From a phage, in sequence record PZ445533.1: a DNA stretch of 48,914 nucleotides, one strand, 5' to 3'. Below, piece after piece: positions 28,143 through 39,048 of this stretch. The position numbers and the translations under genes are program-made. Numbering within the stretch: the first letter of the stretch is position 1; each line of letters opens with the position of its first letter. The notes under the pieces are model-generated. The model ran no database searches. It had not been told where the DNA came from and saw nothing but the letters and a program-made list of their open reading frames with translations.

Positions 28143-30140
28143 ATGATTCCAAATATCGAAAAACAAATATCAGCATTAGGCGAGGCAGTAATAAAAAGCA
28201 TCCAAGAGCGATTCACGGTTGGCAATATAGTGCCTTATCCTTATCAGTGCGTTGCGTATGCAGAGATCGCAAAGCGCATGAAAAACTATGAGCATCCTTT
28301 CTTTGTTAAGGCTTCTGTATCGGCTGGCAAAACATTGATGTTTGCGATGGTTGCGGCGCAATGCCGCAAAATGGGATTGAAAATGATGGTCCTTGCTCGC
28401 CAGGCTGAAATTGTTGATCAGGATTCGGAAGAGATCAGCAATCTTGGCGTGCCAAACTCAATCTATTGCGCCGGACTGAAAACAAAAAGCGCATACTTTC
28501 CGATCGTAGTCGGTTCTGAGGGCACTGTAGTAAACGGATTGTTTAAGTCGTTAGGTGATTATGTTCCGCACGTTATCGGTATTGATGAATGTCACCAGGT
28601 GGATTGGGAGGATCTCGCGGACGCGATAGAAAATAATGAATCTTACCAGCAGATGACCACTAAGAAGGATTTGCCAGTACTGATTGGAGAAGAACAGCAA
28701 TTTGATTCCAATGGCGATCCAATGTTCGGAACAGGGCGCACACAGTACACCGTAATAATAATGGAAATGATGCGTAGGTGTCGCGAGGCATACGGGCACG
28801 AATTGCGAATATTCGGCATGACTGGATCTGAGTTTCGCGGCGTGGTTCCAATACTGGTTGAAGATAAGAACAAAAAGGGATTCTGGCGTGAGCAGGTGAC
28901 TAACATAGACACAAACTACTTAATCAAATTCGGTTCGGTAGTGCCAACAAACTTCGGCGACGTAGGCGACCTGGGTTATGACCTTTCAGAGTTCGAAGCC
29001 AGTAGCGAGGATGGCGTTTCAGACTTTGACGCTAAAACATTGCGCAAGATGGAAGAAAAGATCCATCAAGACGCAACAATGACACAGAAAATCATGGCTA
29101 AAGTCCATGAGATATGCAAAGACAGGAACGGAGTTTTAGTTACATGCGCAGGGGAAAGGCACTGCAAGGAGGCCGCCGCCGCACTGCCGCCAGGCGTTGA
29201 ATACAGGATCATAACTGGCAAGACTGGAGATAATCAGCGTAAAGAGTGGCTGAGGGAGGCATACGAGGGAAAAGTAAAATACATCTTCCAGGTACAGGCG
29301 CTTACCACTGGCGTTAACGTTCCGTTTTGGGATACTTCTGTAATACTGAGAAAGATAGGATCTCTAACATTGCTTATCCAGCTTTTGGGGCGCGGCATGC
29401 GACTGCTTAAGCAATGGCACATTGAGCAGGGATTCAAGAAAAAAGATCATCTTGTATTGGATTTTGCAGGTACTATGGATGAGTTAGGTGATTTGTATTT
29501 CGATCCAATCCTTGAGCAAGCGCAATTCCAAAAGAGATTTACAAACGGGAAAGAGCCTAAGACTTGTCCGATATGTGGAACGCTAAACAGCTTTTACGCT
29601 CGCCGATGTATGCACGTAGACGATAACGGGAAACGATGCGAGCATTTTTGGACTTACAGAATTTGCGAGGACCAGGTAGATCCGAGAACAAAAAAGATAA
29701 TCAAGCGCGGTTGCGGAACAAAAAACGACGTAGTGGCGAGAGTTTGCCGTTGTTGCGATATTTCTCTTGTCGATCCTAACGAGAAGTTAAGCGGTAAGCA
29801 CTACACCAAAAACGATTGGTGCAACGTTAAATATTTCCGCGTTGATATGACGAAAAACCAGAAAGGAATTGTTTTTTGCTATGAGCTTGAGGCCAACGGC
29901 GACACGTTCAAGGCATACGAAAGATTTTTCCCTGAGTCAGAAAGCAACATTTGCCGGACGATATGGAGAAAAATAGCATTGCAGCACATACCGGATCGCA
30001 AGATTGCTGGTATGGTGGCGAGCTATAGAAATGCGCGTAAAATAATGTCATACGCTCATCACATCATGCCGCCTGTACGCGTAACGCATCGCAAAAACGG
30101 CAAAGGTGAGGATAACATTGCAAAACGGGAGTTTGTTTAA
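28143..30140 (+). CDS. SF2 DNA helicase with C-terminal zinc-ribbon region
   Basis: Walker A ASVSAGKT, DECH box, TGS motif, QLLGRGMR motif VI; Cys-rich C-terminus. Confidence 0.85.
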   Translation: MIPNIEKQISALGEAVIKSIQERFTVGNIVPYPYQCVAYAEIAKRMKNYEHPFFVKASVSAGKTLMFAMVAAQCRKMGLKMMVLARQAEIVDQDSEEISNLGVPNSIYCAGLKTKSAYFPIVVGSEGTVVNGLFKSLGDYVPHVIGIDECHQVDWEDLADAIENNESYQQMTTKKDLPVLIGEEQQFDSNGDPMFGTGRTQYTVIIMEMMRRCREAYGHELRIFGMTGSEFRGVVPILVEDKNKKGFWREQVTNIDTNYLIKFGSVVPTNFGDVGDLGYDLSEFEASSEDGVSDFDAKTLRKMEEKIHQDATMTQKIMAKVHEICKDRNGVLVTCAGERHCKEAAAALPPGVEYRIITGKTGDNQRKEWLREAYEGKVKYIFQVQALTTGVNVPFWDTSVILRKIGSLTLLIQLLGRGMRLLKQWHIEQGFKKKDHLVLDFAGTMDELGDLYFDPILEQAQFQKRFTNGKEPKTCPICGTLNSFYARRCMHVDDNGKRCEHFWTYRICEDQVDPRTKKIIKRGCGTKNDVVARVCRCCDISLVDPNEKLSGKHYTKNDWCNVKYFRVDMTKNQKGIVFCYELEANGDTFKAYERFFPESESNICRTIWRKIALQHIPDRKIAGMVASYRNARKIMSYAHHIMPPVRVTHRKNGKGEDNIAKREFV

Positions 30141-30559
30141 TGGCTATAACTGATAAAGGAGATTATCTTGAGTTTTACGAAAGAGATCCAACCGACACTA
30201 GAAAGGAAGTTAATCACCAGATAGATAGCTTTCAGTGGTTGACTTATGCTCATCCTTACTTGCTGGCGTGGCATACGGTAAACGAGAATGAGAAGTCGAA
30301 AGTAACGGCGATGATTGATCAGCAGTCCGGCTTGGTTAAGGGGGTAAGCGATTTCATCATCCTGATTGGTTCAAACGGAAAATACCCCTTTGCAGCGATT
30401 GAGATCAAACGAGTTAATAAATCAGGCAAGGGGAAAGCATCACCAGTCAGCGATGAACAAAAGGCTTTTTTGCGTCGCGTTCGCAGTTTAGGAGGATTCG
30501 CTGCGGTCGCCTACGGATTTAATCAGTTTAAGTTAGCTATTGAATACATGCTTAAATAG
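30140..30559 (+). CDS. VRR-NUC domain nuclease
   Basis: GVSDFIIL...AAIEIKR...DEQKAFL pattern typical of VRR-NUC PD-(D/E)XK fold; TAATG overlap with helicase. Confidence 0.7.
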   Translation: MAITDKGDYLEFYERDPTDTRKEVNHQIDSFQWLTYAHPYLLAWHTVNENEKSKVTAMIDQQSGLVKGVSDFIILIGSNGKYPFAAIEIKRVNKSGKGKASPVSDEQKAFLRRVRSLGGFAAVAYGFNQFKLAIEYMLK

Positions 30560-30612
30560 CACTTTTTGTTAAAACTGGCGCGATGGATTGCGCCATAATT
30601 CAATAACACGAG
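30553..30612 (+). promoter_or_regulatory. Motif cassette (21-bp box + hairpin + ATAAT) upstream of dam
   Basis: AAATAGCACTTTTTGTTAAAAC with TAG as stop of VRR-NUC gene; hairpin GGCGCGATGGATTGCGCC; CATAAT 22 nt after TTGTTA. Confidence 0.5.
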
Positions 30613-30639
30613 ATGGCTTTTAATAGCGGAGAAATGAAA

Positions 30640-31365
30640 ATGGCTAAAGATATTTTAGATAAAGACACACATGACGCATTCGTTAGCTTTGAGCAGTTGG
30701 AGAGAGAAACGTTTATAGGAAATGCTCTTGCAACTGGAGGCCATTACCAGGCAGTAAAGCCAAATCAATATTATAAGGTAAGCGGCAACCGATACGCTGG
30801 AAGCACTACGCCGGACGTTGTGCGCGATATGTGGAGCACACCTCAAGAGATCGTGGAGTGGATGGAATCAGAATTTGGCGAATACGATCTCGACGCGGCA
30901 GCAAGCCATGAAAACGCAGTTTGCGAGAAGTTCTATAGCAAGGAAACAAACTGCTTAAAGCGTTGGTGGGGTAGCAACAAGCACGTATGGCTTAACCCGC
31001 CGCACAGCAACCCAACGCCATTTATCAAGAAAGCAATTGAGCAAATGGAGCACAACAACCAAATTGATGTTTTGCTGCCTGCCGACAATTCCACGGCCTG
31101 GTTTTATGAGGCGCAGAAAAACGCGGCTGAAATCATATGGATCACTGGCGAGGTTTACGAAGAGGGGGGAGTGGAATATTCCCGCACCGGAAGAATCGCC
31201 TTTGTGTCTGGATTGACTGGCGAGCCTGTACAGGGCAACAATAAGGGAAGCGTGATTTTTGTCATGCGCAAACTTAAAGAAGGCGAGGAGCAGAAAACGC
31301 GATACGTTAAGATCAGCGATATTTGCCCCTCTGTAACCGAACGCCGCGCGCGCAAACGGAGCTAA
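30640..31365 (+). CDS. dam: DNA N6-adenine methyltransferase (phage Dam family)
   Basis: DLDAAAS and WLNPPHS motifs; GGAG RBS 9 nt upstream; ORF is open from 30613 so start uncertain. Confidence 0.65.
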   Translation: MAKDILDKDTHDAFVSFEQLERETFIGNALATGGHYQAVKPNQYYKVSGNRYAGSTTPDVVRDMWSTPQEIVEWMESEFGEYDLDAAASHENAVCEKFYSKETNCLKRWWGSNKHVWLNPPHSNPTPFIKKAIEQMEHNNQIDVLLPADNSTAWFYEAQKNAAEIIWITGEVYEEGGVEYSRTGRIAFVSGLTGEPVQGNNKGSVIFVMRKLKEGEEQKTRYVKISDICPSVTERRARKRS

Positions 31366-37659: not shown

Positions 37660-37727
37660 CTCCTTTGTTTGTTCGATGTGATTATGCCAGGTTTTTACAC
37701 CTGGCTTTTAACAAAAAGTGCTATTTT
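37660..37727 (-). promoter_or_regulatory. Motif cassette
   Basis: Minus-strand motif containing methyltransferase stop TAG, hairpin GCCAGGTGTAAAAACCTGGC, ATAATC, TCGAACAAACAAAGGAG. Confidence 0.5.
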
Positions 37728-38431
37728 GAGTTTGACTCAAAGACTGCGCGAGCAAAGCCGCGCGGAGTGAGGGAGCGGATCATCTTTGTGCGCGATGACT
37801 TGCCGCCAGTTTTGGCCCAGCCTGGATTATCTTTGTCTTCCTCTTTCGGCAGGATTAAAGCGCGTGGAGGAATAACAAAGCCGTTGCCAGTCCAGAGGCA
37901 CGTTTTCTTAAAATAGCGATCACGCGCCGGAATAATATCAGGGAAGTCGGGATGTTTATCATCTTCCGGCAGATAGCCAGCGTAATCGCACGGATGGAAC
38001 GTATAATCAGGCTTACGCCATAACGTTGACAACTTGCCAACCGGATTTTCGATCATGTAAGGAACACCGAAATAATCAGCTATATCAGCCGCGATTCTGC
38101 AAGTGTCGGCGGCCTCATCCTGGAACGATGGATTCTCAAGGCGTTTTTTGGCCCAATGGCGAGATCCGCTATTTGCAAGGTCGGTGCAAGGAGGGAACGC
38201 CATAATAAAATCAGGATTGCCCCACTCATTATTGATTGCCTTAACATAAAAAGCATCATCAATCCAGACGTTAACGTATTCGATATTCTCATGCTGTATG
38301 CGCACTGACTGGTAATCACCGTGATCGCCGCCGTCAGCATTAAAGCAAATGCACTTATATCCATTATCAGCCCAATCTTTAACTGCTTTACCAGATCCAT
38401 CAAATAGGGAGAACATTAAACCTTTATACAT
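37721..38431 (-). CDS. Compact DNA (cytosine-5)-methyltransferase-like protein
   Basis: 236 aa; motif I-like FSLFDGSG, motif IV FPPCTDLANSG (PC catalytic Cys), motif VI ENPVG, C-terminal TPRGFARAVF; GAGG RBS 8 nt upstream of ATG 38431. Confidence 0.6.
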   Translation of the reverse strand: MYKGLMFSLFDGSGKAVKDWADNGYKCICFNADGGDHGDYQSVRIQHENIEYVNVWIDDAFYVKAINNEWGNPDFIMAFPPCTDLANSGSRHWAKKRLENPSFQDEAADTCRIAADIADYFGVPYMIENPVGKLSTLWRKPDYTFHPCDYAGYLPEDDKHPDFPDIIPARDRYFKKTCLWTGNGFVIPPRALILPKEEDKDNPGWAKTGGKSSRTKMIRSLTPRGFARAVFESNSK

Positions 38432-38441
38432 CGTCATTACC

Positions 38442-38820: not shown

Positions 38821-39048
38821 TTAAAGAGCACGCCAACTTTGAATATAGAAAGAGTTTTCTTCCAGTAATTCTTTTAACTGATCTTTATTGTATTTGCGCA
38901 CCTTACCGCCTGGATGGATACCAATAAGATAGCCTCCTTTGCCCTCGGTGATAGTGATTTGGCTAATTCCACAAGACTTATCAAGTTTTACAGCCACGCG
39001 GTGATGAGCGTCAATAGTTGACATAATGTTTAAAACTTTTGCTTTCAT
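38821..39048 (-). CDS. Hypothetical protein
   Basis: 75 aa ORF in minus-strand small-gene block. Confidence 0.45.
   Translation of the reverse strand: MKAKVLNIMSTIDAHHRVAVKLDKSCGISQITITEGKGGYLIGIHPGGKVRKYNKDQLKELLEENSFYIQSWRAL

What the first reader, a model, noticed from the sequence alone, without database searches (positions are those of the whole stretch)
30640..31365. Second orphan methyltransferase (Dam family) preceded by motif cassette
Phage Dam-family N6-adenine methyltransferase motifs (DLDAAAS, NPPHS) with no adjacent restriction endonuclease. The unusual NPPH in place of (D/N)PP(Y/F) deserves confirmation. Two different orphan methyltransferases in one small virulent genome is notable.
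Basis: partly seen in the sequence, partly recalled or inferred. Interest (0 to 1): 0.35.

Follow-up and report, generated by a model that had tools for sequence, protein, structure and literature searches.

The report
T1-type phage Dam, catalytic tyrosine mutated
This is the ordinary, well-known DNA adenine methyltransferase gene of T1-like coliphages, but this copy has a single-base change that replaces the catalytic tyrosine with histidine and has probably weakened or killed the enzyme.

Summary
ORF 30640..31365 (+), 241 aa, contains DLDAAAS and NPPHS. It matches Pfam PF05869 "Dam" (E 2.8e-60) and NCBIfam TIGR01712 "phage N-6-adenine-methyltransferase" (177 bits, cut-off 97).

The window is a near-complete Warwickvirus genome (Drexlerviridae, the T1 family). 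The gene is the syntenic ortholog of T1 dam (66% identity), an enzyme shown experimentally to methylate GATC.

Having two orphan methyltransferases is normal for this family, not notable. The "motif cassette" is the 21-nt Drexlerviridae repeat aaATAGCACnnnTTGnTAAAA, already described for phage TLS.

The one unusual point is NPPH. It comes from a single T->C change (TAC->CAC) at 31003.
- All 58 related GenBank phage records lack it.
- 117 of 120 close homologs have NPPY.
- Among 150 diverse family representatives the position is Y (124), F (12) or W (3), never H.

The allele is therefore derived, and by analogy with other N6-adenine methyltransferases it is probably impaired. This was not tested.

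Relatives carry independent hits in the same motif: Y->H twice more, Y->C once, and a W117 stop in 13 metagenome contigs. T1 lacking dam is viable. The gene is already known. The allele is a minor curiosity that might reflect selection against phage Dam activity.

The parts
30554..30574 (+). 21-nt Drexlerviridae direct-repeat element AAATAGCACTTTTTGTTAAAA. It overlaps the TAG stop of the upstream VRR-NUC gene and is probably the upstream half of a promoter.
   Evidence: There are 15 good copies in the window where 2.8 matches are expected, each oriented with its downstream gene. There are 11 copies in T1, one of them directly upstream of T1 dam. It fits the TLS consensus aaATAGCACnnnTTGnTAAAA (PMC11447400).
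30576..30595 (+). GC-rich hairpin (tGGCGCga-tgga-ttGCGCCa) lying between the repeat and the -10-like box. The equivalent T1 position is annotated as a rho-independent terminator.
   Evidence: RNA fold gives an 8-bp stem. The T1 record annotates a terminator at 38973..39001 between ST21 and dam. The consensus terminator scan did not call it because there is no T-run.
30594..30599 (+). -10-like hexamer CATAAT, 19 nt after the repeat.
   Evidence: 12 of 15 repeat copies have a 5-6/6 match to TATAAT exactly 18-19 nt downstream. The sigma-70 scan, which requires a 16-18 nt spacer, did not call it.
30627..30630 (+). Shine-Dalgarno GGAG, 9 nt before the ATG at 30640.
   Evidence: Read directly from the sequence. 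The annotated starts in relatives match 30640.
30640..31365 (+). dam: T1-type phage DNA N6-adenine methyltransferase, 241 aa, Y122H allele.
30886..30906 (+). DLDAAAS motif, the conserved D-x-D-A-A-A-S box. By analogy it is probably the AdoMet-binding region.
   Evidence: D85 is invariant and A88 is at least 90% conserved across 77 diverse family members. xLDAAAS variants dominate the family representatives.
30994..31005 (+). Motif IV, NPPH. The His codon CAC is at 31003-31005 and the derived base is C at 31003 (relatives have T, giving TAC = Tyr).
   Evidence: DNA alignment with tinuso, G3B1, JK16, swan01 and T1. None of 58 related phage records is identical over the 61 bp around the codon. 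The family distribution is Y 124, F 12, W 3 and H only in the query.

Best explanation
The ORF is the Warwickvirus ortholog of bacteriophage T1 dam. It is a small, stand-alone ('orphan') SAM-dependent DNA N6-adenine methyltransferase which, in the wild-type form, methylates GATC on replicating phage DNA. It is transcribed from one of the family's repeat-marked intergenic cassettes (21-nt repeat, hairpin, -10-like box, leader, SD). In this genome a single T->C transition has changed the motif IV catalytic tyrosine (NPPY) to histidine. The aromatic residue at that position stacks on the flipped-out target adenine in N6-adenine methyltransferases. The allele is therefore most likely a hypomorph or a null, and the phage would rely on host Dam for whatever GATC methylation it gets. 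What is shown: family membership, orthology and synteny with T1 dam, the derived single-base nature and rarity of the H allele, and the fact that relatives tolerate disruption of the gene. What is inferred: GATC specificity (from T1 and TLS experiments) and loss of activity (from motif conservation and mutagenesis of other enzymes).
For: Family membership: PF05869 at 203 bits, the TIGR01712 equivalog model at 177 bits, phrog_111. The predicted fold is closest to solved N6-adenine methyltransferases.

Orthology: 66% identity to T1 Dam, with the same order helicase / VRR-NUC / hairpin / dam / small ORF.

Specificity by homology: T1 Dam (YP_003925.1) methylates GATC, and T1 lacking dam is viable with about 60% of the burst size (PMC10470545). 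GATC sites in TLS DNA are adenine-methylated (PMC11447400). GATC is not avoided in the window: 286 sites, observed/expected 0.99.

Derived allele: TAC->CAC at 31003 against five relatives. 117 of 120 close homologs have NPPY. No related GenBank phage has the allele. The exact protein is absent from the gene index. Among 150 diverse 50%-identity representatives the residue is Y, F or W in 139 and never H. Among 93 IMG/VR matches there are 83 Tyr, 7 Phe, 2 Leu and 1 Gln codon, and no His or Cys.

Importance of the residue: mutagenesis of the motif IV tyrosine in M.TaqI, EcoP1I/EcoP15I and HP0593 reduces or abolishes activity (summarised in PMC3036652).

Dispensability: a W117 stop allele occurs in 13 Warwickvirus-like metagenome contigs. 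Two of the three contigs read also carry P120T.
Against: No experiment or methylation read-out is available for this genome. No Tyr->His substitution in any motif IV was found in the searched literature, and histidine is planar and could retain some stacking, so partial activity is possible. Apart from that codon, the ORF differs from its nearest relatives by a single residue each and is full length. It is therefore not visibly decaying. The Y->H change recurs in three backgrounds, which could also mean the allele is functional in some way. A base-calling or consensus error at one position cannot be excluded from the sequence alone.
Confidence: 0.65

Rival explanations
1. NPPH is a tolerated variant. 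The enzyme is a fully functional GATC Dam because histidine can still stack on the flipped adenine.
For: The ORF is otherwise intact and 99% identical to NPPY orthologs. The same Y->H change appears in two other complete ~51 kb phage contigs. The family tolerates F and W at this position.
Against: H is absent from 150 diverse family representatives and from 93 IMG/VR matches. The flanking residues W-L-N-P-P and S-N are invariant in 121 close homologs. The same clade carries clear nulls (W117 stop). So the H alleles fit a pattern of loss-of-function better than a functional variant.
Confidence: 0.22
2. The C at 31003 is a sequencing or assembly error, or a minority variant taken into the consensus. 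The real phage has NPPY.
For: It is a single-base difference, and no GenBank relative shares it.
Against: The site is not in a homopolymer. The identical codon change is found independently in two Logan assemblies from different sequencing runs and different backgrounds, so the change does arise in these phages.
Confidence: 0.08
3. The methyltransferase forms a restriction-modification pair with the adjacent VRR-NUC nuclease.
For: VRR-NUC (PF08774, E 2.2e-10) lies immediately upstream and belongs to a nuclease superfamily.
Against: The VRR-NUC gene's ATG overlaps the TGA stop of the upstream helicase gene (28143..30140 and 30140..30559), and in T1 a terminator is annotated between it and dam. 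The TLS paper lists a Holliday junction recombinase (Gp59) among its replication/recombination genes, next to helicase gp58 (PMC11447400). Whether Gp59 is the homolog of this protein was not checked. T1 lacking dam is viable (PMC10470545), which it would not be if dam protected against a phage-encoded restriction enzyme. In this window, and in the W117 stop lineages, the methyltransferase is mutated while the nuclease is intact.
Confidence: 0.02

Closest known systems
Bacteriophage T1 Dam (ST20, YP_003925.1; M.EcoT1Dam), Pfam PF05869 / TIGR01712
   Same: 66% identity over 218 aa. Same length class (237 vs 241 aa). Same DLDAAAS box and W-L-N-P-P-x-S context. Same gene neighbourhood, and the same 20-nt repeat plus hairpin directly upstream. 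T1 Dam methylates GATC (PMC10470545).
   Different: T1 has NPPY (CCT TAT) and the window has NPPH (CCG CAC). The N-terminal ~25 residues differ.
Dam of Warwickvirus phages tinuso, G3B1, JK16 and swan01 (annotated 'DNA N-6-adenine-methyltransferase')
   Same: 98-99.6% protein identity, with an identical start, length and flanks.
   Different: All of them have Tyr at residue 122. The window differs from G3B1 by one residue (240 of 241 identical); the aligned codon shows that Y122H is a difference, so it must be that residue.
Bas51 N6-adenine methyltransferase, and the Dcm-like methyltransferases of Drexlerviridae, acting as retron triggers
   Same: These are phage-encoded orphan methyltransferases, and Bas51's is GATC-specific. 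Single missense loss-of-function mutations in them arise readily and let the phage escape methylation-triggered retrons (PMC12548924; bioRxiv 10.1101/2023.08.16.553469).
   Different: Homology of the Bas51 enzyme to PF05869 was not tested here. No defence pressure is documented for the phage in this window.
E. coli Dam / T4 Dam / DpnM (alpha-class GATC methyltransferases, DPPY)
   Different: There is no detectable sequence similarity: the PDB sequence search found nothing, and PMC10470545 also notes this. The family is different and the protein much smaller, with NPPx rather than DPPY.

Membership tests
Phage T1-type Dam (Pfam PF05869 / NCBIfam TIGR01712 phage_N6A_met) | Profile score above the curated cut-off | tested here: met
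   PF05869 203.3 bits against 28.1. TIGR01712 177 bits against 97.05, model type equivalog.
Phage T1-type Dam (Pfam PF05869 / NCBIfam TIGR01712 phage_N6A_met) | Conserved D-x-D-A-A-A-S box and W-x-T-P box | tested here: met
   DLDAAAS is at aa 83-89 and WSTP at aa 65-68. P68 and D85 are invariant and T67 and A88 are at least 90% conserved in 77 diverse members.
Phage T1-type Dam (Pfam PF05869 / NCBIfam TIGR01712 phage_N6A_met) | Motif IV N-P-P-(Y/F/W), with an aromatic residue that stacks on the target adenine | tested here: not met
   N, P and P are present but the fourth residue is His. The family distribution is Y 124, F 12, W 3 and H 0 apart from the query. Descent from the family is not in doubt (99% identity to NPPY orthologs). 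What is in doubt is that this copy is an active member.
Phage T1-type Dam (Pfam PF05869 / NCBIfam TIGR01712 phage_N6A_met) | Conserved position in the Drexlerviridae replication module (helicase, VRR-NUC, dam, small ORF) | tested here: met
   Same gene order in T1, tinuso, swan01, JK16 and the Logan/ENA contigs.
Phage T1-type Dam (Pfam PF05869 / NCBIfam TIGR01712 phage_N6A_met) | m6A methylation of GATC | not testable with these tools
   Shown for T1 and TLS only (PMC10470545, PMC11447400). GATC is neither depleted nor enriched in the window (observed/expected 0.99), which does not discriminate.
Orphan (solitary) DNA methyltransferase | No cognate restriction endonuclease encoded next to it | tested here: met
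   The neighbours are a VRR-NUC protein and proteins of unknown function (phrog_2676, phrog_2180), with no endonuclease family beyond VRR-NUC. Restriction activity of the VRR-NUC protein was not tested experimentally.
Type II restriction-modification system | Methyltransferase and endonuclease of the same specificity, with the methyltransferase essential while the endonuclease is present | tested here: not met
   The methyltransferase carries a catalytic substitution here and a stop codon in related contigs, while the neighbours stay intact. T1 lacking dam is viable (PMC10470545).

The most novel reading that the evidence does not exclude
The catalytic-tyrosine substitutions are not random decay. 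They may be recurrent, positively selected inactivation of phage Dam in Tempevirinae. That would mean that in some hosts phage GATC hyper-methylation is a liability, for example because it triggers methylation-sensing immunity such as retrons or m6A-dependent nucleases, and that phages escape by point mutations at the catalytic motif. The observed hits are Y122H in three backgrounds, Y122C once, and W117 stop in 13 contigs. A related oddity: both Y122H and Y122C are A:T->G:C changes at the central TA of one GTAC palindrome, so a local mutational hot spot is an alternative explanation for the recurrence.
Probability: 0.2. Interest if true: 0.5.

Novelty: already known. Interest (0 to 1): 0.2.

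Why it matters
The gene is a textbook T1-family Dam and adds nothing new. The practical value is for annotation. A product name of "DNA adenine methyltransferase" would be assigned automatically here, yet this copy lacks the catalytic tyrosine. Any inference about self-methylation or restriction evasion by this phage should therefore be checked. If the recurrent hits on the catalytic motif in relatives prove to be selected, they would be natural-population evidence that phage-encoded Dam can be costly under methylation-sensing defences. That has so far been shown only with laboratory escape mutants.

Tried and rejected
- A sequence search of the PDB gave only chance hits to snake toxins. Structural relatives had to be found by fold search of a predicted model, and even then only at superfamily level.
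- An exact look-up of the window's protein in the gene index found nothing.
- The sigma-70 and terminator consensus scans called nothing directly upstream of dam. The cassette has a 19-nt spacing and no T-run, so those scans miss it.
- The 34-nt upstream stretch as a whole is unique in the window. Only its first ~20 nt are repeated.
- A literature search for the repeat as a literal string found only unrelated primer sequences. The element was found instead through the TLS paper.
- I considered that loss of the GTAC site, rather than loss of Dam, was the selected change, since GTAC is moderately under-represented (observed/expected 0.64). I think this less likely, because a synonymous TAC->TAT change would remove the site without touching the catalytic residue, yet all four observed changes are non-synonymous. 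This is an argument, not a test.
- I considered an R-M pairing with VRR-NUC and rejected it (see the rival explanations).
- No paper reporting a Tyr->His substitution in motif IV of any N6-adenine methyltransferase was found.

Full report
**What is there.** The region holds one long ORF, 30613..31365 on the + strand. It equals the 726-nt CDS annotated in the closest phages: tinuso, swan01, G3B1 and JK16. The 241-aa product contains DLDAAAS (aa 83-89) and WLNPPHS (aa 117-123). It matches three curated models well above threshold:
- Pfam PF05869 "DNA N-6-adenine-methyltransferase (Dam)", E 2.8e-60, 203 bits against a cut-off of 28;
- the NCBIfam equivalog TIGR01712 "phage N-6-adenine-methyltransferase", 177 bits against 97;
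- phrog_111 "DNA methyltransferase".

**Genomic context.** The window as a whole is a near-complete genome of a Warwickvirus (Drexlerviridae, Tempevirinae). It is about 98-99% identical over most of its length to phages JLBYU19, JK16, tinuso and G3B1. The gene order is helicase, VRR-NUC protein, intergenic hairpin, dam, 85-aa ORF. Phage T1 has the same order (ST22, ST21, terminator, ST20, ST19). The product is 66% identical to T1 Dam.

T1 Dam (YP_003925.1) has been shown to convert GATC to G6mATC. A T1 dam deletion is viable with about 60% of the burst size, and host Dam methylates the phage DNA only partly (PMC10470545). GATC sites in TLS DNA are also adenine-methylated (PMC11447400). GATC is not counter-selected in the window: 286 sites, observed/expected 0.99.

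**"Second orphan methyltransferase".** The other one is at 37724..38434 on the - strand. It has FDGSG, PPC and ENP motifs and matches phrog_757 "DNA methyltransferase", but has no Pfam or NCBIfam hit. It is 99% identical to JK16 gp19. Both genes sit at the same positions in JK16. [quoted passage not shown] Two orphan methyltransferases is thus the family norm.

No restriction enzyme is adjacent. The upstream VRR-NUC protein's ATG overlaps the TGA stop of the helicase gene. The TLS paper lists a Holliday junction recombinase (Gp59) next to helicase gp58 among its replication genes, though I did not check that Gp59 is the homolog of this protein. dam can be lost while the VRR-NUC gene stays intact.

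**"Motif cassette".** The first ~20 nt after the VRR-NUC stop codon, AAATAGCACTTTTTGTTAAAA (30554-30574), are repeated. AATAGCACTTTTTGT with up to 3 mismatches occurs 17 times where 2.8 are expected. In the 15 good copies the repeat is always oriented with the downstream gene. In 12 of the 15, a 5-6/6 match to TATAAT lies exactly 18-19 nt after it. A leader, often with CATCGAAACGAAC, and an SD follow, and a start codon was found 69-85 nt from the start of the repeat in 12 of the 15 copies. The 19-nt spacer usually holds a GC hairpin. For dam this is 30576-30595, and the T1 record annotates the equivalent hairpins as terminators.

The same 20-mer occurs 11 times in T1, including directly upstream of T1 dam. 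It fits the 21-nt repeat aaATAGCACnnnTTGnTAAAA described for TLS. That paper reports it in 21 locations, about 76 nt upstream of start codons, with its function left open: stoperator, enhancer site or UP-like element (PMC11447400). So the cassette is real, family-wide and already described. The fixed spacing to a -10-like box makes a promoter role the most economical reading, but that is inference.

**The NPPH motif.** This is the only unusual feature.
- *DNA level.* It is one T->C transition, TAC->CAC, at 31003 relative to tinuso, G3B1, JK16 and swan01.
- *GenBank relatives.* None of 58 related phage records is identical over the 61 bp around it. The best protein hit in the phage collection is 99.6% identical, one residue different.
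- *Gene index.* The exact protein is not on record in the 153-billion-gene index.
- *Close homologs.* Of 120, 117 have NPPY, 2 have NPPH and 1 has NPPC.
- *Diverse representatives.* Of 150 at the 50%-identity level, the residue is Y in 124, F in 12 and W in 3, and H only in the query.
- *IMG/VR.* A scan for the WLNPPxS(N/K) coding pattern gave 83 Tyr, 7 Phe, 2 Leu and 1 Gln codon, and no His or Cys.

NPPH is therefore not a family variant. It is a private, derived substitution of the residue that stacks on the flipped adenine in N6-adenine methyltransferases. Replacing this tyrosine in M.TaqI, EcoP1I/EcoP15I and HP0593 reduces or abolishes activity (PMC3036652). I found no report of a His substitution. 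Imidazole is planar, so residual activity cannot be excluded. My best estimate is a hypomorphic or dead enzyme (about 0.65), with a functional variant (about 0.22) and a sequence error (about 0.08) as rivals.

**Related alleles.** The two other NPPH proteins (P0013, P0048) and the NPPC protein (P0110) come from complete ~51 kb T1-like contigs with the same synteny, assembled from different sequencing runs. Each differs from its nearest NPPY neighbour at residue 122 plus one to three other sites, and the three sit in different backgrounds.

Fitch parsimony on a neighbour-joining tree of the 121 sequences gives 4 independent changes at residue 122. That ties it with six other columns and places it among the 26 most-changed of 241, whereas the seven flanking residues W, L, N, P, P, S and N have none. 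All four changes fall in the context CCG TAC AGC and destroy a GTAC palindrome: T->C three times and A->G once, which is the same A:T->G:C change on either strand.

A further Warwickvirus-like lineage, seen in 13 metagenome contigs of 48-72 kb, has W117 changed to a stop (TGG->TAG). Two of the three contigs I read also carry P120T. Singletons at other family-conserved positions also exist: T67I in tinuso, D85A and A88E. Together with the viability of T1 lacking dam, this shows that the gene is dispensable and is repeatedly hit in this clade.

**Decay, hot spot or selection.** The data cannot decide among these. Phage methyltransferases are documented triggers of retrons, with loss-of-function missense escapers: the Bas51 GATC methyltransferase (PMC12548924) and Dcm-like enzymes of Drexlerviridae for retron Ec86 (bioRxiv 10.1101/2023.08.16.553469). 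Selection against Dam activity is therefore a plausible lead but remains untested.

**Verdict.** This is a correctly spotted but ordinary gene, the T1-type orphan Dam of a Warwickvirus, sitting behind a known family-wide intergenic repeat. The "two orphan methyltransferases" point is not notable. The NPPH motif is a real, single-base, derived substitution of the catalytic tyrosine and probably impairs the enzyme. It deserves a flag in annotation and a simple DpnI/MboI or 6mA test. On present evidence it is a minor curiosity, so interest is 0.2 and novelty is "already known".

Noticed in passing
window 31003 (codon 31003-31005); L006:1825-1845, L007:1825-1845, L008:1825-1845; L102-L104:1501-2226: The Dam catalytic motif is hit repeatedly in related phages. 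Y122H arose in three independent backgrounds and Y122C once, all within one GTAC palindrome (ccG TAC agc), and all are A:T->G:C changes. A W117 stop (TGG->TAG) is present in 13 metagenome contigs, and two of the three I read also carry P120T. Parsimony gives 4 changes at Y122 against 0 at the seven flanking residues.
   Followed up: partly
window, both strands: 6196, 9951, 20729, 26504, 28066, 30555, 31626, 34875, 37037, 37711, 39628, 40933, 42273, 43680, 45986 (starts of the 15-nt core matches): A family-wide repeat, AATAGCACTTTTTGTTAAAA, is followed at a fixed 18-19 nt by a TATAAT-like box in 12 of 15 copies. A GC hairpin often lies inside that spacer, and a CATCGAAACGAAC leader often follows. 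T1 has the same element 11 times. TLS authors described it with its function unknown. The fixed spacing suggests an unusual promoter architecture (19-nt spacer, UP/-35 composite), possibly overlapping a terminator hairpin.
   Followed up: partly
window 37724..38434 (-): The other orphan methyltransferase is 237 aa, has C5-cytosine-like motifs (FDGSG, PPC, ENP) and matches phrog_757, but has no Pfam or NCBIfam hit. It is 99% identical to JK16 gp19. It is a candidate relative of the Dcm-like methyltransferases reported as the trigger of retron Ec86; its identity with those enzymes was not tested.
   Followed up: partly
P0001 (phage tinuso Dam, MN850634.1 45736-46461): The closest named relative, tinuso, carries T67I in the nearly invariant W-x-T-P box of the family (T is at least 90% conserved across 77 diverse members). 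This may be another impaired allele in a GenBank isolate.
   Followed up: no
whole window: Among 4-bp palindromes, CTAG (observed/expected 0.52) and GTAC (0.64) are the most under-represented, while GATC is at expectation (0.99).
   Followed up: no
window 30613 and 30634: Two in-frame ATGs lie upstream of the annotated start at 30640. Some database entries (P0002, P0003, 250 aa) use 30613. That start would lie only about 6 nt from the inferred transcription start and has no SD, so 30640 is preferred.
   Followed up: partly
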